From contig CAZJUI010000002.1 in assembly GCA_964549185.1 (NCBI GenBank), forward strand, positions 28,409 through 92,408: a DNA stretch of 64,000 nucleotides, in the 5' to 3' direction. A model generated the notes under the pieces. That model was given only the letters and a program-made list of their open reading frames with translations, was not told the origin of the DNA and searched no databases. Numbering within the stretch: position 1 is the first letter of the stretch; every line of letters begins with the position of its first letter. Below, piece after piece: positions 7,062-32,812 of this stretch. Made by a program: the position numbers and the translations under genes. Origin of the DNA: Candidatus Woesearchaeota archaeon (GTDB lineage Archaea > Nanobdellota > Nanobdellia > SCGC-AAA011-G17 > JAGVZF01).

Positions 7062-7170
7062 CCCCGTTCATAAAGAACATATTTGTTCAAAATAACGATA
7101 TATAAGCTTTATGCATTACTGATTTCACTTTGCATTAAAATGACATGATTTTTAACTAAAAGTAAGTATT

Positions 7171-7203
7171 AATTTTGAACTAAAACTAATTCTTTTTTAC
7201 TTT
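7171..7203. repeat. Direct repeat, copy 1 of 33 bp. It duplicates the 3' end of the wHTH gene 8599..8922.
   Basis: aatTttgaactaaaactaattcttttttacttt is repeated at 8601..8633 with one mismatch. Confidence 0.8.
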
Positions 7204-7883
7204 AATGCTTTATCACTAGAAACAATTTTACAAATTTTTCCTACTTGCTCTATATCTACATCAAATTTCTTTTCTATGAATACACCTTTAAAAGAATCAA
7301 TAAAATTTTTATCGTTTATAGTATGATCTAACCTCTTAAGATTTTCCTTTATTTTATCTAAATATCCAATAAATAAAAACCTCTTTATTAATCCTAAATC
7401 CGTATCTTTTGCTAATGCTGCTATATCTCTGAAATCTGTCAATCTTCCAGAATGAATTTTCATAACTATCAATAATTCTTTTATCGGTATTTTACCTGAA
7501 ACCTCTTTTTCAACTCCTATGATTTTCCTTTTGATTGAATTATCAGCAAGTAATCTATAACTAAATGAGGCATTTGTTGTTCTCGAGGCTAAGGCATCTA
7601 TTAATATATCAATACTTGCATTATCTTTTTCATATCTCATAAATCTTGAAGAATAAATATTTTTTAGTTCTTTTGAAATAACTTTCTTAAATTTTTCTTT
7701 TGTTAATATTTGTTCAAATTTATTTAAATCTGCACTTTCAATAACAATATCTGCATCGACAGAAAACCTATGCTTGAATGAAGAAACTGCATATCCACCG
7801 ACAATTATAAAATCTAACTTTTTTTCTATAAATTTTTGTAAAATATAAAATATCTCATTTTCTTTCTTTATCAGTTCTTCCAT
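7197..7883 (-). CDS. AbiEii/AbiGii-like nucleotidyltransferase (DUF1814-like toxin).
   Basis: ORF of 228 aa. It has the NTase-fold motif IIVGGYAVSSFKHRFSVDADIV, which matches the GG-T/Y-A...RFSxDxD pattern. It sits directly downstream of a wHTH gene in the same orientation. Confidence 0.55.
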   Translation of the reverse strand: MEELIKKENEIFYILQKFIEKKLDFIIVGGYAVSSFKHRFSVDADIVIESADLNKFEQILTKEKFKKVISKELKNIYSSRFMRYEKDNASIDILIDALASRTTNASFSYRLLADNSIKRKIIGVEKEVSGKIPIKELLIVMKIHSGRLTDFRDIAALAKDTDLGLIKRFLFIGYLDKIKENLKRLDHTINDKNFIDSFKGVFIEKKFDVDIEQVGKICKIVSSDKALK

Positions 7884-7890
7884 TTTATCA

Positions 7891-8529
7891 CTATAAAAAG
7901 TTAGTTTCTCTATATTTTATATTTAAGTTTTTATTATACATTTCATTAATCATTTCTAAAGCTGGTTCAAAATTATATATATTTTTTTGCATAAATCTTA
8001 TTGTTTCATCCAATGGTTCAACCAAAAAATTACCTTTTTTAACATATTTAAATCTTTCTAAAATCTCTGGAGCAAAGAAAACTTTTTTTTTCGAGTTAAC
8101 TTTTAAATCTAATTTTTTACAATATTCTAAAAAGATATCATAATCCGATTTCTTAATTTTAATAAATATTGGATAATATTCTTTGTATCTGGCTACATTA
8201 TATCTTCCTTCAGTCCAGACATAGACTGCATCTGTTTTTGTAAAACAATATTCTATTCCAAATAAACTTAAAATAGAATAATAATGACTAATATCATTAA
8301 AATTATTTTGTATAAACTTTAATATTATTTTGTATGTTGAATTTTCTTTTTGTAAGGTGACTCCGCGCCATCTTTCCTTAAAAATGCCTTCTTTTATTAA
8401 TTCTTCGATCCATTTATGTGTCCAGCCATATGACAATCCAATTCTTTTGGAAATAGAGCTCACGCTATCTTGGTCTCTTGCAGATATCAATATTTTCATT
8501 ACATATGGATTTATCAAGTCAAATTTCAT
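7891..8529 (-). CDS. AbiEi-like antitoxin or transcriptional regulator with an N-terminal wHTH.
   Basis: ORF of 212 aa with an N-terminal HTH (ISKRIGLSYGWTHKWIEELIKEGIF). It is 8 nt upstream of the NTase gene. Confidence 0.45.
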   Translation of the reverse strand: MKFDLINPYVMKILISARDQDSVSSISKRIGLSYGWTHKWIEELIKEGIFKERWRGVTLQKENSTYKIILKFIQNNFNDISHYYSILSLFGIEYCFTKTDAVYVWTEGRYNVARYKEYYPIFIKIKKSDYDIFLEYCKKLDLKVNSKKKVFFAPEILERFKYVKKGNFLVEPLDETIRFMQKNIYNFEPALEMINEMYNKNLNIKYRETNFL

Positions 8530-8598
8530 ACTATCACTATAATGATACTATATAAAAACCTTTCTATTATCTTATTTTATATAAAATACTTTAAATTA

Positions 8599-8922
8599 TC
8601 AATGTTGAACTAAAACTAATTCTTTTTTACTTTGTTTCTCAATTTCTGAATCAACAACACTCCAATAATAATTAATAAATTTTTCAACTTGCGGATTTTC
8701 CCTGTTTAATTTATACATCTTTGCTTTTCCAACATCTCTCGTATGATTAACTATCTTTCTCTTAACAAAATCTTTCCATATTTCTTTTAAACTAGTATAA
8801 CTTATTTCTGAAAACTTAGCAATATCTCTCATAGAATAATCAAATTCAGAATGAACTATCAAAAAGTTCCAGATCCTGTTTCTTACAGTATTTCCTTCTA
8901 GTTTTAAAAACAATTTTTTCAT
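8599..8922 (-). CDS. Winged-helix transcriptional regulator.
   Basis: ORF of 107 aa with an HTH-like core (MRDIAKFSEISYTSLKEIWKDF). Its last 10 codons lie inside repeat copy 2. Confidence 0.45.
   Translation of the reverse strand: MKKLFLKLEGNTVRNRIWNFLIVHSEFDYSMRDIAKFSEISYTSLKEIWKDFVKRKIVNHTRDVGKAKMYKLNRENPQVEKFINYYWSVVDSEIEKQSKKELVLVQH
8601..8633. repeat. Direct repeat, copy 2 of 33 bp.
   Basis: It matches 7171..7203 and encodes ...KKELVLVQH plus the stop of 8599..8922. Confidence 0.8.
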
Positions 8923-16162: not shown

Positions 16163-17518
16163 ATGAAAAAATCAATAAAGCCAATAAAGATAATAATCTT
16201 AATAGTTTTAGTTATTTTAGTTTTAACATTATTTTATTTAAATATAAAGCCATTTGGTGGATCAGTAAGATATTCAAAAATAATAAATCAAGAAAATACA
16301 TTATTACCTCAAGATAGGATATCTGAAATTAAAACAGAAGGAAATATAAAATACCAAGAAGCTTTAGCAGATTTAATTTATACAGATATTTCAACTCCAG
16401 GTGATATTAATGAAGACATATTACTTAAAATAAGATTTAAGGATAATTTTCCTAAAGATTCTAAAATATCTGTTGGAATACAAGATAAAGAAAATCATTA
16501 TAATCAACAAACAGCTTATATTAAAGTTCCAAATGAAAAAGTAATCTCTTCAGATAGTATAAATCAAATTCCAGAAAATTCAATAGTCTACATTGATGAT
16601 ATAAATTTGATAGTTAATAATCAAAACATAATATCAGGGGAAATAAAACCATTAGACCTTCAACCTTTTTTAAGAGGAAGTTATAATATCTTAATATATT
16701 TAGATGGAGATTTATCATTTACAGTCAAACAACAAGACCTAAATTGGTATAATAATACAGATGAAACGAATATTACATTAAAAGACAGTAAAGATAATAT
16801 ATTAACATCTGTAACTATAGAAGATGATAATGATAATAAAAATGATAGAAAATTACATGACCCAAGACAAGCAACATTAACATATCCCAATTTACAGGGA
16901 ATATACAAAATAGAAATAAGAAACAATGAAGATTCTATAATAACAGAAATTCAATCATCAACAGATAAAATAATATTTTTAAATAAATTATTTTTAGCAG
17001 CCTCAAAAAATTATGTTAATAATGATGATCAATTTTCACAAGTTTATTTTAATATAATAAAAGACACAAACATATCTTTGTCAACACCACACAAACAATA
17101 CGAACAAAACATTCAAATCAACAACATCTCATATAAAGTTCCATATCAACAAAAGAATACAATAACACTACCCCAAGGTTCATACAATCTCTTATCATTC
17201 AACTCTAATATTATAGTAGAAGGTAACACTTACTTTGCATTTAATAAAGATTCATTATTCAATCCATATAAGTTTACAATAACAAAGAACATAGCGGAGG
17301 CAGATTACATAATAACAAACTATATTCCTCCAATAGAAGACAATGGATGGTTAATATCAACTGTTAAGTTTAATCTTAGTGATTTATACATAAAAGACAA
17401 CAAATTAAACGTTTTAATTAACATTCCTCATCTAGCTAAGAATGAAACTAAGAACTACACTATTCCTATTGATTACATTGAACTAGAATATTACAAAAAG
17501 CCTTTATTCTCTAGATAG
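16163..17518 (+). CDS. Membrane-anchored or secreted hypothetical protein, rich in Asn and Ile. Its 3' 250 bp is the founding copy of a three-copy repeat.
   Basis: ORF of 451 aa with an N-terminal TM segment (IKIIILIVLVILVLTLFYL). Confidence 0.55.
   Translation: MKKSIKPIKIIILIVLVILVLTLFYLNIKPFGGSVRYSKIINQENTLLPQDRISEIKTEGNIKYQEALADLIYTDISTPGDINEDILLKIRFKDNFPKDSKISVGIQDKENHYNQQTAYIKVPNEKVISSDSINQIPENSIVYIDDINLIVNNQNIISGEIKPLDLQPFLRGSYNILIYLDGDLSFTVKQQDLNWYNNTDETNITLKDSKDNILTSVTIEDDNDNKNDRKLHDPRQATLTYPNLQGIYKIEIRNNEDSIITEIQSSTDKIIFLNKLFLAASKNYVNNDDQFSQVYFNIIKDTNISLSTPHKQYEQNIQINNISYKVPYQQKNTITLPQGSYNLLSFNSNIIVEGNTYFAFNKDSLFNPYKFTITKNIAEADYIITNYIPPIEDNGWLISTVKFNLSDLYIKDNKLNVLINIPHLAKNETKNYTIPIDYIELEYYKKPLFSR
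17265..17518 (+). repeat. Repeat copy 1, about 250 bp. It is the intact 3' coding end of 16163..17518.
   Basis: Homologous to 18247..18486 and 19489..19733. Confidence 0.85.
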
Positions 17519-17570
17519 AAAGGTTTATAAGTAAGATAATCTTACAGTAAGATTAGGAGGTGAAAGGAAA

Positions 17571-17840
17571 ATGGAAGTCGAAACAACTAAAATGTCATCT
17601 AAAGGACAAATTGTAATACCCCAAGATATAAGGGAAGATATAGAAGCTACAGAAGGAACTATATTTGCTGTTACACATAATAAAGATACAATAATTTTAA
17701 AAAAAATGGAAAAGCCATCAAAAGAATTTATATTAAAAGAAATCGAGAAAATGGCCAAAGAAAATAGAAAATACTTAGAAAGCAAAGGATTTACAGAAAA
17801 AGATGTTATGGAAAAAATCCTAAAATCAAGAGGAAAATAA
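17571..17840 (+). CDS. AbrB/MazE/SpoVT-type antitoxin, VapB-like.
   Basis: ORF of 89 aa with the swapped-hairpin motif KGQIVIPQDIREDI. It has a strong SD (aggaggtga). Confidence 0.6.
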   Translation: MEVETTKMSSKGQIVIPQDIREDIEATEGTIFAVTHNKDTIILKKMEKPSKEFILKEIEKMAKENRKYLESKGFTEKDVMEKILKSRGK

Positions 17841-17843
17841 ACT

Positions 17844-18245
17844 ATGAATGTGGTCTTAGATACAAACGTTCTTATATCTTTAAGTGTATGGGAAACAAGC
17901 GAAGCAAAAAAATTACTTGATGAGTTAGTTCATAAAAATATAAACATATTTTCCTCAGAAGAAATTAAATTTGAATATGTAAAAGTTTTAAGAAGAGATT
18001 TTGAATTATCAGATAATAGAATTGAAGAAATGTTAGAAAAAATATTTTTCTATATAGATTTCGTAGAACCAGCAGAAAAAGTAGATATTGTAAAAGATGA
18101 TCCTACAGATAATAAGATAATAGAATGTGCAATAGCTTCTAATTCTGAGTATATAATAACTTATGACAAACATTTATTAGATATTAAAAAATTTAGAAAC
18201 ATCAAGATGATAAAACCAAAAGAAGCATTTCAAGTTATAAAATAA
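17844..18245 (+). CDS. PIN-domain toxin, VapC.
   Basis: ORF of 133 aa with motifs MNVVLDTNVLI and IITYDKHLL. It lies 4 nt after the antitoxin. Confidence 0.7.
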   Translation: MNVVLDTNVLISLSVWETSEAKKLLDELVHKNINIFSSEEIKFEYVKVLRRDFELSDNRIEEMLEKIFFYIDFVEPAEKVDIVKDDPTDNKIIECAIASNSEYIITYDKHLLDIKKFRNIKMIKPKEAFQVIK

Positions 18246-18246
18246 T

Positions 18247-18486
18247 CATATAAGTTTACAATAACAAAGAACATAGCAGAAGCAGATTACATAATAACAA
18301 ACTATCAGCCTCCAATAGAAGACAATGGATGGTTAATATCAACTGTTAAGTTTAATCTTAGTGATTTATACATAAAAGACAATAAAACGTTTTAATTAAC
18401 ATTCCACATCTAGCTAAGAATGAAACAAAGAACTACACAATTACATAGAATTAGAATATTACAAGAAACTCTTATTCTCTAGATAA
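18247..18486 (+). repeat. Repeat copy 2. It is a decayed copy of the 3' end of 16163..17518, with deletions and a frameshift.
   Basis: About 90% identical to copy 1 but has two internal deletions. It starts immediately after the PIN stop codon. Confidence 0.85.
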
Positions 18487-18529
18487 AAACCGAAACATTT
18501 ATATAACAGTTGTTATATTATTATTACAT

Positions 18530-19060
18530 ATGTTACAAAATTATAACAAGTGGAAATTATTAAAAGTATTTTTTGAAGATCCTTTAAAAGAAGGTGGTTT
18601 TCAATTAAGAGAACTTAGCAGAAAAATAAAACTAGCTCCAATTTCAGTAAAACTATATCTAAATGAATTAGTTAAAGACAATTTAATAAAAAAATCAACG
18701 CTTCATAATTACCCAATATATCAAGCTAATCGAGATAATGAAAAATTTCTGCTATTTAAGAAAATAGATACAATTATTTTAATAAAAGAGTTTAATCTAA
18801 TAGATTACCTAAATGATAAATGTCTGCCATCCGTAATAATTCTTTTTGGAAGTGCCTCAAAAGGTGAAGATTTAAAAGATAGTGATATAGATATATTTGT
18901 TCAGGCAAAAGAATCAAAATTAGATTTACAAGAATTCGAAACTAAATTAAAACGAAAGATTAATATATTTTTCTCTGATAACTTTAATAATTTAAGTAAA
19001 GAATTAAAAAACAATATGTTGAACGGCATTATTTTAAAGGGATATTTAAAGGTATTTTAG
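18530..19060 (+). CDS. Minimal nucleotidyltransferase (MNT-type), the partner of a HEPN-like protein.
   Basis: ORF of 176 aa with the motif IILFGSASKGEDLKDSDIDIFV, which matches GSx10DxD. It has an N-terminal HTH-like region. Confidence 0.7.
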   Translation: MLQNYNKWKLLKVFFEDPLKEGGFQLRELSRKIKLAPISVKLYLNELVKDNLIKKSTLHNYPIYQANRDNEKFLLFKKIDTIILIKEFNLIDYLNDKCLPSVIILFGSASKGEDLKDSDIDIFVQAKESKLDLQEFETKLKRKINIFFSDNFNNLSKELKNNMLNGIILKGYLKVF

Positions 19061-19474
19061 ATGATAGAAGGAATAATAAGGATAACTCCAGATAAAGAGA
19101 AAGCAAAATCTATAAAGAAGATGTCAGAGATAACATCAGAAATGATAAAAACTATAGATATAGAAAGATTTCCCTCAAATATATTAAAAGATTATTATGA
19201 TGTAATTAGAGAATTGATAACAGCGATTCTCCTTTTAGACGGATATAAATTTATTGGAGAAGAAGCTCACAAAAAATCAATACAATATATAGAACAAAAT
19301 TATAATGAATTTACAAAATATGAAATAGTAATGTTAGATGATTTAAGAATATTAAGGAATAAAGTAGCATATGATGGATTTTTTATAAAGAAGGAATACA
19401 TTCAAGAAAGAATAAAAGAAATACTCAATATTATAAATAAGTTAAATAAGATAATAATTGCAAAATTAGAATAA
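19061..19474 (+). CDS. HEPN-like protein, the partner of the MNT.
   Basis: ORF of 137 aa starting 1 nt after the MNT stop. It is helical, but the canonical Rx4-6H motif is not clear. LRNKVAYDG is the only candidate. Confidence 0.45.
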   Translation: MIEGIIRITPDKEKAKSIKKMSEITSEMIKTIDIERFPSNILKDYYDVIRELITAILLLDGYKFIGEEAHKKSIQYIEQNYNEFTKYEIVMLDDLRILRNKVAYDGFFIKKEYIQERIKEILNIINKLNKIIIAKLE

Positions 19475-19488
19475 TAATCCATATAAAT

Positions 19489-19733
19489 ATCAAATAACAA
19501 AGAACATAGCAGAAGCAGATTACATAATAACAAACTATCAGCCTCCAATAGAAGACAATGGATGGTTAATATCAACTGTTAAGTTTAATCTTAGTGATTT
19601 ATACATAAAAGACAATAAACTAAACGTTTTAATTAACATTCCTCATCTAGCTAAAAATGAAACAAAGAACTATACTATTCCTATAGATTACATAGAGCTA
19701 GAGTATTATAAGAAGCCTTTATTCCAACGATAA
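19489..19733 (+). repeat. Repeat copy 3. It is a near-intact copy of the 3' end of 16163..17518.
   Basis: It could still encode ...ITKNIAEADYIITNYQPPIEDNGWLISTVKFNLSDLYIKDNKLNVLINIPHLAKNETKNYTIPIDYIELEYYKKPLFQR*. Copies 2 and 3 share variants (gcagaagcag, cagcctcc) that are absent from copy 1. Confidence 0.85.
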
Positions 19734-19825
19734 TATTAAGAAATATATCTTGCTATCACTTCTCACATCTCACACATTTCACATATGCGCGTAAAGTTTA
19801 TAAATGAGTATTATTTAGTATATTT

Positions 19826-23849: not shown

Positions 23850-25286
23850 ATGGAATCCGCAGGAAAAGGAACATTATACTTAATAATAGCACAAGTTGTA
23901 ATGATAATCTCAGGTTATCTTACACATTTTGTTCTAGGTAGATATCTAGGACCTGAAAGCTATGGAACTTACGGATTAATATTAACAATAGCCACAACAT
24001 TAAACTTAATCTTAACTTCTGGAATTCCAACCTCAGTTTCAAAGTTTATTGCAGAACAAGAATCAAGATCCAAATCAATTTTAAAAAAAGCATTAAAAGT
24101 ACAATTAATATTCTCAGTTATAATTTCTTTATTATTCTTAGCATCAGCTCATTTAATATCAACATTATTGCAAGATGCTTCATTAACAAATTATTTTAGA
24201 TTAATGTCAATAGTTATCATTCCATATTCCTTATTTTCAATTTTAATTGGTTATTTTAATGGGAAAAGATTATTCAAAACCCAAGCAATATTAAATATTT
24301 TTTATTCAATTGCAAGAGCTGCAGCAATTATAGGTTTAGCCTTCTTATTCCATCTATATGGAACAATTATTGCATTTATGGTATCTCCAATATTAATATT
24401 AATCATAGCATTATATCTATCAAGAAAAGATAAAACCCAAGAAGATTCCATTTCATCCAAAACATTAATAAAATATGCAATTCCAATTTCAATTTTTGCA
24501 GTAATCTTTAATTTTGTACAAACTTTAGATTTATATTTTGTTAAATCTTTGTTAAAACAAGACATCTTTACAGGTTATTACACAGCTTCAATAACAATTT
24601 CCAGAGTTCCATTGTATATTTTAACTTCGTTATCCATAGTTATACTTCCTTTAATATCAAATGCATTAAATGACAAGGAAAGAACAAAAAGATTAATCAA
24701 CTCAGCAACAAAATATACCCTAATTATTTTAATGCCTTTAACAATTTTATTTGCTACAACATCAGAAAGAATAATTTCATTATTTTATTCCAATGTTTAC
24801 TCTCCTGCTTCAACTTCATTATCAATTTTAATAATTGCCATAGCCTTCTTTACAATATATTCATTTTTATCCAATATTCTAAACGGAGCAGGAAAACAAA
24901 GAGTTCCAATGTATATTATTCTAGTCTTATTAGTCATAGATTTTATTTTACTTAATTTCCTAGTTCCAAAATATCAATTGGTTGGAGCAGCAATATCTAC
25001 ATTAATAGTAAGTTTTCTAGCTTTTTTATTATCATCAATCATAGTTTACAAAGAATTCAAAGCTTTAATTTCATTTAGATCTTTAGTAAGAATATTATTT
25101 GCATCTTTAATACTATTTGCTCCATTATTCTACACTTTAAACAAATACTTCTTGCCATTGGAGTATTTAATATTAACTTTACTATATTTAATAATCTTAT
25201 ATTTATTCAAGGAAATAAGAAAACAAGATATCAAAGAATTACTTCCAACTAAATTTCATGGAATATTAAACTTCATTCCCGAATGA
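23850..25286 (+). CDS. Polysaccharide biosynthesis flippase, Wzx/MOP superfamily.
   Basis: ORF of 478 aa with about 12-14 TM helices, typical of MATE/Wzx-like proteins. It is in the glycosylation locus. Confidence 0.7.
   Translation: MESAGKGTLYLIIAQVVMIISGYLTHFVLGRYLGPESYGTYGLILTIATTLNLILTSGIPTSVSKFIAEQESRSKSILKKALKVQLIFSVIISLLFLASAHLISTLLQDASLTNYFRLMSIVIIPYSLFSILIGYFNGKRLFKTQAILNIFYSIARAAAIIGLAFLFHLYGTIIAFMVSPILILIIALYLSRKDKTQEDSISSKTLIKYAIPISIFAVIFNFVQTLDLYFVKSLLKQDIFTGYYTASITISRVPLYILTSLSIVILPLISNALNDKERTKRLINSATKYTLIILMPLTILFATTSERIISLFYSNVYSPASTSLSILIIAIAFFTIYSFLSNILNGAGKQRVPMYIILVLLVIDFILLNFLVPKYQLVGAAISTLIVSFLAFLLSSIIVYKEFKALISFRSLVRILFASLILFAPLFYTLNKYFLPLEYLILTLLYLIILYLFKEIRKQDIKELLPTKFHGILNFIPE
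25246..25286. repeat. Direct repeat, copy 1. It is the 3' end of the flippase gene.
   Basis: ctaaatttcatggaatattaaacttcattccCgaatGa is repeated at 25966..26006 with two mismatches. Confidence 0.8.
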
Positions 25287-25289
25287 TTA

Positions 25290-25676
25290 TTAATAAGATA
25301 TAACTTTAACATCATCAATTCTAGAAAAATGTTGTTTATTATTTGTTATTATTATATTACAATTATTTTTTAACATTATTGCAGATATTAAACAGTCATT
25401 TTGTCCGATCATTTTTCCCTTTTTAGCTAGATCAGATAGAATTTTAGCAGCATTTCTCCCCCAATTATTATTACATAAGATTTTTATAGTTTCAAAAAAG
25501 GATAAAGCAATTTCTTCTTCATTTTTATTAAATTTTTTATTATAAATTCCAAAAAAAACTTCAAAAACATTAATCTCTGTAGTTGCAATGTCTTCTTTAT
25601 ATCTTTCTATAACATTTTTAGCTTCTTTATTTCCATTTAAAAAATCAATAATGCAATCAGAGTCTATACATATCAT
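25290..25676 (-). CDS. PIN-domain toxin, VapC.
   Basis: ORF of 128 aa with motifs MICIDSDCIIDFL, NDCLISAIML and ITNNKQHF. Confidence 0.65.
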   Translation of the reverse strand: MICIDSDCIIDFLNGNKEAKNVIERYKEDIATTEINVFEVFFGIYNKKFNKNEEEIALSFFETIKILCNNNWGRNAAKILSDLAKKGKMIGQNDCLISAIMLKNNCNIIITNNKQHFSRIDDVKVISY

Positions 25677-25912
25677 TTTTTCTTATACAATCTTAAAAGT
25701 TCTTTACTTGAATTGTCTCTAAGTTTTAAAATATCTCCCTTCATTTTTTTTATTTCAGTTTCTGGCGTATCTTTCCAAGCGCCGGCAAATTTCATTACAT
25801 CTCCCTTTTTTGCAATTCTTCTAATAACATCAGAAAAACTTTCTTCTTCATTTTTAGTTTTTTTTAAAATGTCATACACATCATCCATTATTGATATAGT
25901 TTTAGTTCCCAT
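25673..25912 (-). CDS. VapB-type antitoxin. The true start is probably at MGTK or MDDV rather than the MCMCMCM in the ORF track.
   Basis: ORF of 79-85 aa that overlaps the PIN start by 4 nt. The start of the ORF-track version runs through an (ATACAC)n microsatellite. Confidence 0.45.
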   Translation of the reverse strand: MGTKTISIMDDVYDILKKTKNEEESFSDVIRRIAKKGDVMKFAGAWKDTPETEIKKMKGDILKLRDNSSKELLRLYKKK

Positions 25913-25934
25913 ACACATACACATACACATACAT
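25911..25934. repeat. Hexanucleotide microsatellite, (ATACAC)3 plus ATACAT.
   Basis: The sequence reads atacacatacacatacacatacat. It sits at the junction between the TA cassette and the right-hand flanking repeat. Confidence 0.9.
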
Positions 25935-25965
25935 CTATATAAACTTTTCTATCAAAGAACTTCTC

Positions 25966-26006
25966 TCATCTAAATTTCATGGAATATTAAACTTCATTCC
26001 TGAATA
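25966..26006. repeat. Direct repeat, copy 2. It duplicates the 3' end of the flippase gene.
   Basis: It matches 25246..25286. Confidence 0.8.
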
Positions 26007-26066
26007 ACCACTTTTAAAAAGTAACAATAGAAAACTTTATAAGCTAATAATTTTCATAAAGAACCC

Positions 26067-26933
26067 ATGGCAAATATTAAAATTGAAGGTTATAGAACAA
26101 TTTCACCAAACGAGGTATTTGGAAGAGCTTCAAACCCAATACCACATAATGAAACAAAACTTCTTACTGAAACTACTGAACTAATTTATTTGCAAAGATA
26201 TGGTATACCAAGAACAGACGATGTTTTGCAAGCAATTGTAACAAGTGCAGCAGAAGTTAGAGATGAAAAATCAAAGGATAAATATACTTTTTCAGAAATA
26301 GCAAAATTCTTAAAAATAGGCATTAGATTAAATCGCATTAATTCAGAATATATAGAAAAAATAGCAAGCTCTGAAAAAGAAACAATAGACCATATCAAAA
26401 GACATATGCCACCAACAGATTTGGAGCAAGGAAGATATTATCTAAAACTGTTTAATGGCACAATCATTAATGATATTTTAAAAACCTCGGCTCCAGTTAT
26501 AAAATCCATAGGTAACAATAAATATGGAGAAATGATAGAATTATGTTGCAACGATTCACTAATTTTTACATTGATGATGCAAGACAGTAAAACATTGCCA
26601 GATAGATCAGAAATAGAATATCTAATGAAAAGAAGAGCCAATAACCCAGCTGTTAGTTCCATAGCGGGAAAAGGAATAGATTATCAAAAATTTATAAGAA
26701 TTGTAGAATGGTTTTATAATTTATCTACTACTAAAGAAGTTGAGAAAATTCCAGACACATCTTTACCCCTATTTGTAACAACTGCATCTACTGCAATAGC
26801 GGTTTCCGCAATCTGCAAAAGATTAAGAGAATCTCCTTTCGAAAAAGAAGGTAATGGAACTTTAATGGAAACATTGGAAAGTTTATTTGGACAGCTCAAA
26901 AGAGTTGATGAAACAGGCTTTCAAAAAAATTAA
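26067..26933 (+). CDS. Hypothetical protein.
   Basis: ORF of 288 aa with no recognisable motif. Confidence 0.45.
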   Translation: MANIKIEGYRTISPNEVFGRASNPIPHNETKLLTETTELIYLQRYGIPRTDDVLQAIVTSAAEVRDEKSKDKYTFSEIAKFLKIGIRLNRINSEYIEKIASSEKETIDHIKRHMPPTDLEQGRYYLKLFNGTIINDILKTSAPVIKSIGNNKYGEMIELCCNDSLIFTLMMQDSKTLPDRSEIEYLMKRRANNPAVSSIAGKGIDYQKFIRIVEWFYNLSTTKEVEKIPDTSLPLFVTTASTAIAVSAICKRLRESPFEKEGNGTLMETLESLFGQLKRVDETGFQKN

Positions 26934-28429: not shown

Positions 28430-29209
28430 TATTTTTTCTTCAAGAACCTTAAATACATAATCTCTATCTTCAAATCTTATCATAAAGCCAGCTTTATTAA
28501 CATTTTTCTTAAATTCACCATCAAGATAATAACAAGTACCAATATGTTTATCCAAACCTTCAGTTATAGGTTCAATTAACTTGTTAAAAATATTTAATAA
28601 GGTTATTATATCATTATCTTTAGTGGCAATATAAGTACTGTTATCATTAACAATTAATTCATAAAATGCTAAAGCGCACAATCTTTCATCGTTAAATCTA
28701 TGCCTTCTTTTCCCATCATTAATTAAAGATTCATTAGGTTCCTTGATATTGTATCTTTGTCCAATTTCAACAAATAAATTTTCTATCGCTTCAAGTCTAT
28801 CCGAAAATTCAGCTTTATACGTGTTATTTCTCAATAAACTTCTTACACTCTTCATCCTGTTTAACAAACTGTCAAAATATTTCATATGCTCCTTAGAATA
28901 AACTCTGGGATATATCGACCCAGGACTTCCAAGATATTTGAGATTTAAAATTCTAGCCAGATAACATTCAACAAAATTACTAAATTCTTTTAAACAACCT
29001 TTGCTGGTAAAAACTCTCTTGTCAGGATCTTTCAGGTTTGCTATGATACCACTATAAAATTTTTCTTTATTTTCATAATCAAGAAAAAAATTCATTATTG
29101 ATGGGGTTAGAGCACTTTCCTTTATACTGATATATCCATAATTTATAGGGTCTGCTAAAAAAGATGTATCTAGCAATATTGTATCTTTATTATTTCTATT
29201 ATCTGACAT
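28424..29209 (-). CDS. Hypothetical protein with PIN-like signatures.
   Basis: ORF of 261 aa. It has TILLDTSFLAD near the N-terminus and YIATKDNDI near the C-terminus, which suggests an extended PIN-like fold. Confidence 0.35.
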   Translation of the reverse strand: MSDNRNNKDTILLDTSFLADPINYGYISIKESALTPSIMNFFLDYENKEKFYSGIIANLKDPDKRVFTSKGCLKEFSNFVECYLARILNLKYLGSPGSIYPRVYSKEHMKYFDSLLNRMKSVRSLLRNNTYKAEFSDRLEAIENLFVEIGQRYNIKEPNESLINDGKRRHRFNDERLCALAFYELIVNDNSTYIATKDNDIITLLNIFNKLIEPITEGLDKHIGTCYYLDGEFKKNVNKAGFMIRFEDRDYVFKVLEEKIL

Positions 29210-29262
29210 GTTTAGTTTACATAATCAAAAAGCTTTTAAATGTTATTCTTTTAAAATATATT

Positions 29263-29628
29263 ATGGAAAAGATATTTAAGGTATGGCTTGCTGTAATAAT
29301 CTCATTAATTATATTATCATTCATATTAGCTCCTTTTCTTACAATATCAACATCATTTAGAATAGTATTCGGATCATTATTTGTTTTATTTATTCCAGGG
29401 TATTTCATTACATATATCTTCTTCCCAGAAACAACAAAAGAGCATAAAATAGATTCTATAGAAAGAATAACCTTGAGCTTTGCATTGTCAATAGCAACTG
29501 TTCCATTAATAATCTTTTACTTAAACAGGATAGGAGTAAAAATAAATTTATTAAACTCTACACTAATAATAATTGCAATAATTGTGGCTTCGTTAGTAAT
29601 AATATATTTTAAGCAGAAAAAGCATTAG
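29263..29628 (+). CDS. Small membrane protein. The start has been moved to the internal ATG.
   Basis: MEKIFKVWLAVIISLIILSF... with 3 or 4 TM helices. The ORF-track start at 29164 would overlap the upstream gene. Confidence 0.4.
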   Translation: MEKIFKVWLAVIISLIILSFILAPFLTISTSFRIVFGSLFVLFIPGYFITYIFFPETTKEHKIDSIERITLSFALSIATVPLIIFYLNRIGVKINLLNSTLIIIAIIVASLVIIYFKQKKH

Positions 29629-29633
29629 TTATA

Positions 29634-30365
29634 ATGTCACTAATCTCAATAATCAATTTAAAGAAAGAATTCAAAACAGAAAATAAAATAATTAAGGTAT
29701 TTGATGATTTATCGCTAGAAATTCAAGAAAAAGAATTTTTAGTCATTCTAGGTCCAAATGGTTGTGGAAAAACAATATTGTTGAATATGATTGCAGGTTT
29801 TGAAAAATATACAAAAGGACAAATATTGGTTAAAGGAAATCAGATATCTCAACCATCAAAAGAGATAGGATTTGTGTTTCAAGAATTATCTCTTTTCCCC
29901 TGGAAAACCGTTTCCAAAAATGTCCTATTCGGTTTAGAAGTAAATAAAGTCAAAAATGCAGAAGAGATTGCAACAAAATATATAGATATTTTAGGATTAT
30001 CAGAGTTTAAACATACATATCCAAATCATTTATCTACAGGCATTAAACAAAAAGTAGCTATAGCAAGGACTCTTACCCTAGATCCAGATATATTATTGAT
30101 GGATGAGCCATTTTCTAATTTAGATGTTACTACAAAAAAAGTTTTGCAGCAGGAACTTATTAGCTTATGGAAATCAACCAATAAAACCATAATCTATGTA
30201 ACCCATAATGTTGATGAAGCAATAGCAATTGCTACAAGGATAGTATTATTAAATAATGATGGATGTATAAAAAAGATTATAAACATTAAACATCATCATC
30301 CTAAAGATTTATCACTGCCATATTTTAAAAAATTAAAAATAGATATTGAAAAGATAAGAAAATGA
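29634..30365 (+). CDS. ABC transporter ATP-binding protein of the NitT/TauT (SsuB/TauB-like) family.
   Basis: Walker A GPNGCGKT, signature LSTGIKQKVAIARTL and Walker B LLMDEPFSNLD. Confidence 0.8.
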   Translation: MSLISIINLKKEFKTENKIIKVFDDLSLEIQEKEFLVILGPNGCGKTILLNMIAGFEKYTKGQILVKGNQISQPSKEIGFVFQELSLFPWKTVSKNVLFGLEVNKVKNAEEIATKYIDILGLSEFKHTYPNHLSTGIKQKVAIARTLTLDPDILLMDEPFSNLDVTTKKVLQQELISLWKSTNKTIIYVTHNVDEAIAIATRIVLLNNDGCIKKIINIKHHHPKDLSLPYFKKLKIDIEKIRK

Positions 30366-31333
30366 AAAAGAAAATAAAAATATTTTTAATAACCGGAATT
30401 TTATTAATAATGCTGATAATAATTTCAGTAAAGACAATAGAAAAGAAAGAGCAACCATCTATAAATTTTGGATATGCTTATAATATTGGAATGCTTCCGG
30501 GCATTGTAGGTGTAGAAAGAAATCTTTTTGAAAAACAAGGATTAAAAGTCAATCCAAGGATCCTTACAGGTGGCAAAGAAGTTGTGGAAGCGATGATTGC
30601 CGGAGATATAGATTTTGGATTAGCATCTTCAGGTAATATAATTCCCGCAGCTTCAAAAACAGATGATATCAAAATAATAGCAACTACAAGCTGGGGTGGG
30701 GGGAGGAAAAGGTTAATGATAAGAAAAGATCTTTTAATAAATAATTTCTCAGAATTAAAAAGTAAAAAAATAGCAGTAAAGATTGGAGGAACAAATTATA
30801 AGAATCTATTAAAATTAATAGAACTTTCAAATACCAACATAAAGGATTTTAGAATCATGAATATGAAGGATGATGATGCCATGGTAGCATTACAAACTAA
30901 AGATATAGATGCTTTCTTATGCGGTGAACCTTATTGTGCTACTATGGAATATAAAGATGTAGCTTACGAACTCTTAAATTTTGATAAAACCGAGAAAGAC
31001 CCAAATTTCTTATTGATTAGAAAAGATTTTATGGAAAAAAATCCGGAATTGGTTATCGAATTTTTAAAAGCTTGGATAGAATCAGTAGATTTTGTAAATA
31101 ATAATATTGATGAATCAAAGAATATAATAAGCAAAAAAGGTAACATAGAACCAGAAATCATTGACTTAGCGATAAAATACGCTAGATATGATTCAGATTT
31201 AGACGATTCGATGATACAATCATTTAAAGAAGATTCTAAGTTCTTACTCGATCAAAAAGTTATAGAAAAGCTGCCTAATTTTGATGATATAATAGTCAAG
31301 AGATATTTAGCAGAAGCTATAAAGATAAAATGA
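30362..31333 (+). CDS. ABC transporter substrate-binding protein, NMT1/THI5-like (SsuA/TauA/ThiY type).
   Basis: ORF of 323 aa with an N-terminal TM/signal segment. Its size and position between the ATPase and the permease fit this role. Confidence 0.6.
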   Translation: MKKKIKIFLITGILLIMLIIISVKTIEKKEQPSINFGYAYNIGMLPGIVGVERNLFEKQGLKVNPRILTGGKEVVEAMIAGDIDFGLASSGNIIPAASKTDDIKIIATTSWGGGRKRLMIRKDLLINNFSELKSKKIAVKIGGTNYKNLLKLIELSNTNIKDFRIMNMKDDDAMVALQTKDIDAFLCGEPYCATMEYKDVAYELLNFDKTEKDPNFLLIRKDFMEKNPELVIEFLKAWIESVDFVNNNIDESKNIISKKGNIEPEIIDLAIKYARYDSDLDDSMIQSFKEDSKFLLDQKVIEKLPNFDDIIVKRYLAEAIKIK

Positions 31334-32109
31334 AATTAAAAGAAAAAACTAAAAATATATTATTATTCCTGTATCCATTGATAATAATTATAATAATCTG
31401 GCAAGTAATATCTACTTTTTTTATACCAAACTCAATAATCCTACCATCCCCATTTAAAGTTTTTACATCATTTTATAAATTATTGGTTGAAGGGGTTCTG
31501 CAAGTAAATTTATTTTATAGTTTAATTAGAGTAATAATAGGATTTTTAATTGGATCAATTTTAGGCGTGATACTAGGTGCACTTATGGGAAGTATAAAAC
31601 AAATAGAGATATTTTTAAATCCGATAGTAAATTTATTACAGCCAATCCCAAAGATAGCATGGATTCCACTAGCTATTCTTTGGTTTGGTTTAGGTTTTAC
31701 TGCTACAATATTCATTATAGCTCTAGCAACATTTTGGGCAGTTTTATTCACAGCATGGAATGGAGTAAAAAGTGTAAACAAAATTCTTATAAAAGCAGCC
31801 CAATCCTTGGGCGCCAAAAAAGGATATATTTTTTTTAATGTTTTATTACCAGCAGCTTTCCCTCAGATAATAACAGGAATGCGCTTAGGTATAGGGATGG
31901 CTTGGAGAGCATTAGTTGCAGCAGAATTATTGATAGCAAGTACAAATGGATTAGGATATATGATATTTAATGCCAGAGAATTTTTTAGAACAGAAGAGAT
32001 TATTGTTGGAATGTTGATAATAGGATTAATCGGCATCCTTATAGAAAAGGTAGTTTTCAGAAAAATAGAGATACTGACTATGGAAAGATGGGGGATGTAT
32101 AATAATTAG
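31330..32109 (+). CDS. ABC transporter permease (BPD_transp_1).
   Basis: Six TM helices. The EAA-like loop AAQSLGAKKGYIFFNVLLP is present. Confidence 0.75.
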   Translation: MKLKEKTKNILLFLYPLIIIIIIWQVISTFFIPNSIILPSPFKVFTSFYKLLVEGVLQVNLFYSLIRVIIGFLIGSILGVILGALMGSIKQIEIFLNPIVNLLQPIPKIAWIPLAILWFGLGFTATIFIIALATFWAVLFTAWNGVKSVNKILIKAAQSLGAKKGYIFFNVLLPAAFPQIITGMRLGIGMAWRALVAAELLIASTNGLGYMIFNAREFFRTEEIIVGMLIIGLIGILIEKVVFRKIEILTMERWGMYNN

Positions 32110-32113
32110 CAAC

Positions 32114-32812
32114 ATGTTTTCTATAGATAAATATCGCGGGATACACAAAGGCACAAGAATTGCTGTATTGGGATCTTCTCCAACTTTATCTTTATATCAT
32201 AATGAAGAAGATATAGCTATTGCAGTTAACGGTGCCCCACAAGCATTAAATAAGCAAAGTAAAGTAGATTATTTTATGTGCGGGGATAAAGATTCTTATA
32301 AAAGACAATGGTTTCTTTCATCTCAAAGATTTAATGCTACACGAATTGTTTCCTCATTTGTACTCCCATTTGATGAAATAATAATTCCCGACATTCAAGA
32401 AAGAAAAAAACTTCAAAAAAGATTAATGGATTTTGAAAGCACAAAGGAATCCCTAATTAAATTTATACTAGATGATTATATTTTAGATTCCAGCCACGGT
32501 TTCTTTTATTACAGCAGACCTTGGAATCAGGAAATATCTAGAGATCAAAAAAGATTTGCTAAAAGTTGTACGATTACTGGGGTTGCTTCTCAGATGGCGT
32601 TAGTTATGGGTGCGGAAGAAATACATTTATATGGTTGCTCTTTTGGAGATGTAAAAGGAAACCATTACAGTTATGATGCAAAAGATGAGCCTGGTGAAAT
32701 CAAACCCTGGCAACCAACAGTAATGGATTTTATAATCTATCAAATAATTCAACAGGGTGTAAGGGTTTATTCACACGGATTTACTACATTAAGAATGCCG
32801 GAAAAGCATTAA
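32114..32812 (+). CDS. DUF115/MptE-like family protein, possibly a pyrophosphokinase or a Maf-type transferase.
   Basis: GxGPS-like N-terminal motif IAVLGSSPTLS and the C-terminal motif TGVASQMALVMGAEEIHLYGCSF. Confidence 0.35.
   Translation: MFSIDKYRGIHKGTRIAVLGSSPTLSLYHNEEDIAIAVNGAPQALNKQSKVDYFMCGDKDSYKRQWFLSSQRFNATRIVSSFVLPFDEIIIPDIQERKKLQKRLMDFESTKESLIKFILDDYILDSSHGFFYYSRPWNQEISRDQKRFAKSCTITGVASQMALVMGAEEIHLYGCSFGDVKGNHYSYDAKDEPGEIKPWQPTVMDFIIYQIIQQGVRVYSHGFTTLRMPEKH

What the first reader, a model, noticed from the sequence alone, without database searches (positions are those of the whole stretch)
25246..26006. VapBC cassette flanked by a 40-bp duplication of the flippase gene's 3' end
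The last 40 bp of the Wzx-like flippase gene (25246..25286) are repeated at 25966..26006 with two mismatches. A more degenerate match extends about 15 bp further upstream. The repeats bracket only a PIN plus antitoxin pair on the opposite strand. This is the same architecture as the 16163 array: a TA cassette inserted at a gene's 3' end with the gene tail duplicated. An (ATACAC)n microsatellite sits at the inner junction.
Basis: seen in the sequence. Interest (0 to 1): 0.65.

Follow-up and report, generated by a model that had tools for sequence, protein, structure and literature searches.

The report
Toxin-antitoxin cassette inserted with duplicated gene end
A small toxin-antitoxin gene pair was inserted into the end of a sugar-flippase gene in a DPANN archaeon, apparently bringing its own copy of the gene's last 57 bases so the gene stayed intact; the same pattern recurs at several neighbouring genes, which suggests a simple way for such cassettes to enter streamlined genomes.

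Summary
The last 57 nt of the flippase gene (25230-25286, including TGA) recur at 25951-26007 (including TAA). The match is ungapped at an offset of 721, with 7 mismatches and a 31-nt identical core.

The repeats bracket only a compact VapBC module: BRE/TATA promoter, leaderless vapB, and vapC overlapping it by 4 nt. A sister genome (Ca. Nanoarchaeia SMAG_U8169, ~90% nt identity) has the empty site: one tail followed directly by the same downstream gene.

The "(ATACAC)n microsatellite" is not a junction scar. It is this VapBC family's conserved TATA-to-ATG tract, seen in six lineages.

Duplicated gene ends flank variable inserts at four other sites in the two genomes, with repeat lengths of 11 to ~345 nt. 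The longer copies differ mainly at synonymous sites (pN/pS about 0.04-0.3), so they were functional gene ends in different lineages rather than local duplications that decayed.

Best reading: the cassette was imported together with a gene-end segment and integrated by a Campbell-type crossover that rebuilt the gene and displaced the original end. No integrase, attC-like hairpin or shared motif was found, so the enzymology is open; I favour homologous recombination. This is a new variant of known att-flanked or integron-like cassette arrays.

The parts
23850..25286 (+). Host gene: Wzx/MurJ-type polysaccharide flippase, 478 aa, intact.
   Evidence: ORF. Pfam Polysacc_synt_3 5.5e-29, Polysacc_synt 5.9e-27, MurJ 1e-14. 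92% aa identical to the ortholog in L001/L003.
25230..25286 (+). Proximal tail copy (attL-like): the last 18 codons plus TGA, which complete the functional flippase ORF.
   Evidence: All changes specific to this copy are synonymous or stop-to-stop: TTA for CTT, CCC for CCT, TGA for TAA.
25249..25279 (+). 31-nt core identical in both copies (second copy at 25970-26000), the candidate crossover segment. It contains an imperfect inverted repeat, TTCATGGAAT / ATTCC(C/T)GAA.
   Evidence: Exact match twice in the window, 0 expected. The inverted repeat is read from the sequence; its significance was not shown.
25290..25676 (-). vapC: PIN-domain toxin, 128 aa. Its stop codon lies 3 nt from the flippase stop, in convergent orientation.
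   Evidence: PF01850 E 2.9e-12. NCBIfam VapC models match below their cut-offs. All 33 columns invariant in 8 family members are kept, including D5, E34, E39 and D94.
25673..25912 (-). vapB: antitoxin, 79 aa from the ATG at 25912 (MGTKTISIMDD...), overlapping vapC by 4 nt. The longer ORF reaching 25930 (MCMCMCM...) is probably not used.
   Evidence: PF02697 E 4.1e-17. The start ATGGGAACTAAA is conserved in homologous cassettes. NCBIfam PRK13696-type match from residue 1.
25913..25935 (-). 23-nt alternating pyrimidine-purine tract between the TATA box and the vapB ATG. It contains most of the (CATACA)x4 repeat (25910-25933), whose last 3 nt are the vapB start codon. Probably the initiator/operator region of a leaderless transcript.
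   Evidence: TRF. An equivalent 21-23 nt YR tract sits at the same place in L004, L007, L027, L030 and L031. The operator role is inferred.
25936..25949 (-). The cassette's own archaeal promoter (BRE + TATA: GAAAAG TTTATATA on the minus strand); outer end of the cassette.
   Evidence: RAAAGTTTWAAATA is conserved in six lineages at the same distance from the ATG. Nothing upstream of it is conserved.
25951..26007 (+). Distal tail copy (attR-like): the displaced, non-coding flippase end including TAA, contiguous with the native downstream DNA.
   Evidence: Its 3' end plus the next 49 nt are identical to the single-tail empty site of L001. This copy alone carries the two non-synonymous changes, P to S and T to S.
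26008..26066 (+). Native intergenic region with the promoter (GAAAACTTTATAAG) of the downstream gene 26067..26933, left intact by the insertion.
   Evidence: The block 25950-26099 (distal tail copy, this spacer and the first 33 nt of the gene) is 92% identical to L003, while the gene body is only about 60% identical.
17261..19825 (+). Same architecture, larger. Three copies of the 16163..17518 tail (17261-17518 functional; 18243-18491 with 4- and 10-nt deletions; 19476-19724 plus ~100 nt with a BRE/TATA). They bracket AbrB/MazE + PIN_3 (17571..18245) and an MNT-type nucleotidyltransferase + 137-aa partner (18530..19474).
7164..8633 (-). Same architecture, minus strand. The last ~36 nt plus stop of the conserved 107-aa gene 8599..8922 (8594-8633) are repeated at 7164-7203, bracketing a wHTH gene (7891..8529) and a nucleotidyltransferase-like gene (7197..7883).
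   Evidence: 40 nt at 92.5%. Both copies end in a stop codon, TGA and TAA. Weak Pfam hits. The sister genome L018 has a single tail and different cassettes.
29616..32812 (+). Short version of the same pattern with non-TA cargo. A 3.2-kb ABC-transporter operon is present only in this genome, flanked by GAAAAAGCATTAG (the end and stop of DUF1616 gene 29164..29628) and GGAAAAGCATTAA (32800-32812).

Best explanation
The ~660-bp VapBC module is a horizontally acquired, self-contained cassette. It runs from its own BRE/TATA promoter to the vapC stop codon.

Proposed route of entry: a single reciprocal (Campbell-type) crossover inside the last 57 nt of the flippase gene. The crossover was between the chromosome and an incoming, probably circular, DNA that carried its own copy of a flippase 3' end next to the TA pair.

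The product is what is seen:
- A proximal hybrid copy completes the flippase ORF: native on the left, imported on the right, including a different stop codon, TGA.
- The cassette follows.
- A distal copy is the displaced original end: a decaying left part, and a native right part with TAA and the native downstream promoter.

I think the crossover was most likely made by general homologous recombination rather than by a dedicated integrase. The duplicated gene ends then serve as substrates for loss, exchange and tandem accretion of further cassettes, as in the 16163 array.

Once resident, the cassette presumably behaves as an ordinary type II VapBC system. VapB would neutralise the PIN RNase VapC and repress its own leaderless transcript through the YR tract, and the addictive pair would resist loss.

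Shown: the insertion polymorphism, the limits of the cassette, the recurrence at other gene ends, and coding-type divergence of the copies. Inferred: the circular intermediate, the crossover position, the recombination enzyme and the TA activity.
For: 1. Insertion polymorphism. L001/L003 (90% nt identity over the flanks) has one tail and no cassette; window 25284 joins directly to 25950.

2. The distal copy's right end plus 49 nt downstream are identical to the empty site. The proximal copy's right end differs (CCC, TGA), as expected for attR = P-O-B' and attL = B-O-P'.

3. The two flippase copies are as diverged at synonymous sites as orthologs of the two sister lineages: pS 0.27 against 0.35 for the whole gene, with pN 0.07.

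4. In the larger arrays the signal is strong.
- 16163 tails: pS 0.20-0.42, pN 0.01-0.07, pN/pS 0.04-0.30. For example, the functional and first orphan copies in the L genome differ by 10 synonymous and 2 non-synonymous changes.
- GT2 head copies in L018: 4 synonymous and 1 non-synonymous.
- The copies were therefore working gene ends in different lineages, not local duplications that decayed.

5. Non-synonymous changes and ragged similarity cluster at the inner boundary of the orphan copies, the arm that never becomes part of the gene. The outer part is kept through the stop codon, or, for the 5' head, through the promoter.

6. The pattern recurs at five gene ends in two sister genomes, each present in only one of the two or with different cargo. 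Repeat lengths are about 11, 36, 57, 97-175 and 235-345 nt.

7. In favour of homologous recombination over an integrase:
- No Phage_integrase or transposase hit among the 39 window ORFs scanned against Pfam.
- None among the pre-computed Pfam calls for the related loci L015-L022.
- No k-mer shared by the four repeat families beyond chance.
- No attC-like hairpin.
Against: - Only 57 nt, with a 31-nt identical core, is short for efficient homologous recombination.
- The core contains an imperfect inverted repeat of the kind tyrosine recombinases use.
- Only 64 kb of this genome and about 45 kb of the sister genome were visible, so an integrase elsewhere, or on a helper virus or plasmid, cannot be excluded.
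- No free circular form, no donor lineage and no second copy of this cassette were found. The best VapC relative is 64% identical, and there was nothing in the viral contigs.
- For the flippase pair alone, the synonymous excess rests on 6-7 differences and is not significant by itself.
- The origin of the first 'tail + cassette' molecule is unexplained.
- The empty site in the sister genome could be a precise secondary loss rather than the ancestral state.
Confidence: 0.42

Rival explanations
1. Site-specific integration of a miniature, non-autonomous element. The 57-nt tail is an att site with the 31-nt core as the crossover region, recombined by a tyrosine or serine integrase supplied in trans from elsewhere in the genome or from a helper virus or plasmid. 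The cassette would be the archaeal counterpart of a cis-mobilizable element or an integron cassette.
For: - The architecture is the classical attL/attR signature of elements that target gene 3' ends and regenerate them: an identical core, an imported coding end and the repeat ending at the stop codon.
- The core carries an imperfect inverted repeat.
- Tandem arrays with the oldest copy most distal match the accretion model described for ICE/IME/CIME tandems and tycheposons.
Against: - No integrase in 64 kb, or in about 45 kb of sister-genome loci.
- Five different gene ends are used, and no motif is shared among the four longer repeat families tested, so several integrases or very relaxed specificity would be needed.
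- Repeat length varies from 11 to 345 nt, and the inner boundaries vary within one array.
Confidence: 0.3
2. One-sided homologous recombination plus an illegitimate join (homology-facilitated illegitimate recombination). A linear fragment from a donor in which the flippase and VapBC were plain neighbours anchored by homology in the flippase gene. Its far end joined illegitimately 57 nt upstream of the recipient's stop codon, duplicating the tail.
For: - It needs no special element or enzyme.
- It explains why similarity ends at the stop codon, because the donor and recipient neighbours differ.
- It fits the short 10-13 nt duplications at the L003 extra cassette and at the ABC operon.
- Synonymous divergence of the flippase gene rises mildly toward the 3' end, from pS 0.25 to 0.49.
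Against: - No sharp step in divergence; the trend lies within the range seen in the neighbouring EpsG-like gene.
- It predicts sharp inner boundaries and fully native orphan copies. Observed boundaries are ragged, with non-synonymous changes clustered there.
- In the L array the repeat unit includes a promoter tied to the next cassette.
Confidence: 0.15
3. Remnant of a larger integrated virus, plasmid or island that entered at the flippase tail by its own integrase and was then deleted down to the addictive TA pair.
For: - TA pairs resist loss.
- Decay of att-flanked elements to integrase-less remnants is documented in bacteria.
- DPANN genomes are under strong deletion pressure (my own knowledge).
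Against: - The insert is exactly promoter-to-stop: 3 nt from the flippase stop on one side and the BRE abutting the tail on the other.
- At least seven other cassettes in the two genomes are equally minimal.
- No integrase fragments or other pseudogene debris were seen.
Confidence: 0.09
4. Local duplication with no import: a long target-site duplication or replication slippage made at the moment of insertion, followed by divergence in place.
For: Direct repeats flanking an insert are what a staggered-cut insertion produces.
Against: - The copies differ by 12%, as much as the sister lineages differ.
- The differences are biased to synonymous sites, strongly so in the 16163 and GT2 repeats: pN/pS 0.04-0.3 against about 1 expected for decay.
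- There are no terminal inverted repeats.
- The duplication length is not fixed.
- The outer boundary coincides with the stop codon each time.
Confidence: 0.03

Closest known systems
Integrative elements that target gene 3' ends, their integrase-less att-flanked derivatives (cis-mobilizable elements, CIMEs) and tandem accretion (Guedon et al. 2017, PMC5704250, read)
   Same: [quoted passage not shown]
- The repeat stops at the gene's functional limit.
- Arrays are built by successive arrivals at the same gene end.
- The flanked units lack integration genes.
   Different: - These units are 0.45-1.9 kb, usually just a promoter plus a TA pair, in a DPANN archaeon.
- No integrase was seen anywhere nearby.
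- Five unrelated gene ends are used, including a 5' end with its promoter.
- Repeat lengths run from 11 to 345 nt.
Integron cassette arrays, including archaeal integrons and integrase-less attC clusters (Ghaly et al. 2022, PMC9668308, read), and TA cassettes in chromosomal integrons (PMC13108822, title and start of abstract only)
   Same: - Arrays of short cassettes separated by a repeated element.
- Cassette content turns over completely between close relatives while the repeats persist.
- TA pairs are common cargo.
- A circular cassette carrying one repeat is the expected intermediate.
   Different: - The repeats are copies of a host gene's coding end, not attC sites.
- They show no single-strand hairpin (z -0.65 to +1.15).
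- No IntI was found.
- The cassettes have their own promoters.
- One cassette, the VapBC studied here, is inverted relative to the host gene.
Tycheposon islands of Prochlorococcus (Hackl et al., bioRxiv 10.1101/2020.12.28.424599, read)
   Same: A streamlined genome in which islands grow beside a gene end, new arrivals push older ones outward, and partial copies of the target gene are left scattered through the island.
   Different: - Tycheposons carry tyrosine recombinases and replication modules, and mostly target tRNA genes.
- Here the targets are protein-coding genes and no mobility genes are present.
Orphan toxin/immunity modules downstream of cdiA and rhs genes (my own knowledge: Poole et al. 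2011; Koskiniemi et al. 2014; not re-read here)
   Same: A newly acquired 3' end with its small partner gene displaces the former 3' end, which stays downstream as an orphan. Homologous recombination in the shared segment does the swapping.
   Different: - There the displaced ends encode different toxin domains.
- Here all tail copies encode the same peptide, and the toxins are separate, standard TA genes.
Type II VapBC toxin-antitoxin systems (the cargo itself)
   Same: - A PIN toxin preceded by a small antitoxin gene that overlaps it by 4 nt.
- Its own promoter, with a repeat-rich tract at the position of an operator.
- Family members are widespread in Woese-, Pace- and Nanoarchaeota.
   Different: Nothing unusual in the proteins. 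Only the mode of insertion is of interest.

Membership tests
Type II TA system, VapBC | Toxin with a PIN domain that retains the family's conserved acidic residues | tested here: met
   PF01850 E 2.9e-12, covering positions 1-118 of the 120-position model. D5, E34, E39, D94 and all other columns invariant in 8 relatives are kept.
Type II TA system, VapBC | Small antitoxin gene immediately upstream in one operon | tested here: met
   PF02697 VAPB_antitox E 4.1e-17. The 4-nt ATGA overlap is at 25673-25676.
Type II TA system, VapBC | Toxicity of VapC, neutralisation by VapB and autoregulation at an operator | not testable with these tools
   There is only a conserved YR tract between the TATA box and the ATG in six lineages, which suggests a binding site.
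Integron gene cassette | attC recombination site that folds as an imperfect hairpin when single-stranded | tested here: not met
   DNA folds of both flippase tail copies on both strands give z -0.65 to -1.26. The 350-nt 16163 unit gives z +1.15. No attC covariance model was available; Rfam found only a tRNA.
Integron gene cassette | Integron integrase (IntI) next to the array | tested here: not met
   No Phage_integrase hit among the 39 window ORFs scanned against Pfam or in the related loci. The rest of the genome was not visible.
Integron gene cassette | Promoterless cassettes in one orientation | tested here: not met
   The VapBC cassette has its own BRE/TATA promoter and is inverted relative to the host gene.
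Integrase-mediated integrative element / CIME | attL/attR direct repeats, with the element-side copy regenerating the target gene's end | tested here: met
   The 57-nt repeat ends at the stop codons. The proximal copy keeps the ORF through synonymous changes only, and the distal copy is contiguous with native DNA.
Integrase-mediated integrative element / CIME | Integrase encoded in the element (autonomous) or a demonstrable cognate integrase acting in trans (CIME) | tested here: not met
   None in the element, the window or the related loci. An integrase acting in trans from unseen sequence cannot be excluded.
Integrase-mediated integrative element / CIME | Site-specific excision to a circle, leaving a restored attB | not testable with these tools
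   This needs the raw reads. The empty site in L001/L003 is compatible with it but is not proof.
Transposon / IS / MITE | Terminal inverted repeats and a short target-site duplication of fixed length | tested here: not met
   No inverted repeat at the cassette ends. The flanking repeat is 57 nt and 12% diverged, and lengths at the other sites are 11-345 nt.
CDI/Rhs-type orphan modules | Displaced 3' ends that encode alternative toxin domains, each with a cognate immunity gene | tested here: not met
   All tail copies encode the same peptide. The toxins are separate standard TA genes.

The most novel reading that the evidence does not exclude
DPANN archaea of this lineage may run an integrase-free, homology-driven cassette capture system, a 'gene-end integron'. 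Small TA or defence cassettes would travel as circles that carry a copy of a host gene's end. Integration by homologous recombination rebuilds the gene. Because a cassette whose gene-end copy is defective would inactivate the host gene, selection keeps the cassette-borne ends coding, giving pN/pS of about 0.1. The resulting arrays of duplicated gene ends would act as landing pads where cassettes are exchanged across lineages.
Probability: 0.27. Interest if true: 0.8.

Novelty: new variant of a known kind. Interest (0 to 1): 0.6.

Why it matters
TA modules are among the most mobile genes in prokaryotes, yet how bare TA pairs move when they are not riding on plasmids, phages or integrons is poorly understood.

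Here a minimal VapBC cassette is caught as a clean presence/absence polymorphism with a gene-end duplication. The same pattern recurs at five gene ends in two sister genomes of an ultra-small DPANN archaeon, with different cargo at each.

The synonymous-only divergence of the orphan gene ends shows they were imported as working gene ends. That gives a concrete, testable route for cassette gain that keeps the target gene intact. It also gives a simple computational signature for finding such events in other genomes: duplicated gene ends with low pN/pS flanking inserts of 3 kb or less.

If no integrase is involved, this would be a recombinase-independent analogue of integrons, operating in organisms that lack most known gene-transfer machinery.

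Tried and rejected
- attC or integron reading: the tails and the 350-nt 16163 unit do not fold better than shuffled controls. Rfam finds only a tRNA.
- Integrase or transposase in cis: Pfam scans of the 39 window ORFs selected around the cassettes and among the larger genes found none.
- A shared att core: no k-mer is common to the four repeat families beyond chance.
- A viral or plasmid carrier: exact-pattern scans of the viral contigs with the flippase core and the 16163 tail core found nothing.
- A near-identical copy of the cassette elsewhere: the best non-self VapC is 64% identical. The exact window proteins that were looked up (flippase, VapC) are not in the contig index.
- Tail duplication as a general property of this VapBC family: six other contexts (L004, L007, L027, L028, L030, L031) show none. 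The 15-20 nt matches in L004 and L007 do not extend in register and were set aside as inconclusive.
- The microsatellite as a junction scar: rejected, because the tract is conserved in the family.
- A mosaic step in divergence inside the flippase gene that would mark an imported 3' segment: only a gradual rise in pS, which is inconclusive.
- The neighbouring 288-aa gene as a hidden recombinase: no Pfam, PHROG or PDB hit, and the single-sequence AlphaFold model was unusable at pLDDT 34.
- Literature searches for TA cassettes flanked by duplicated gene ends in archaea returned nothing specific.
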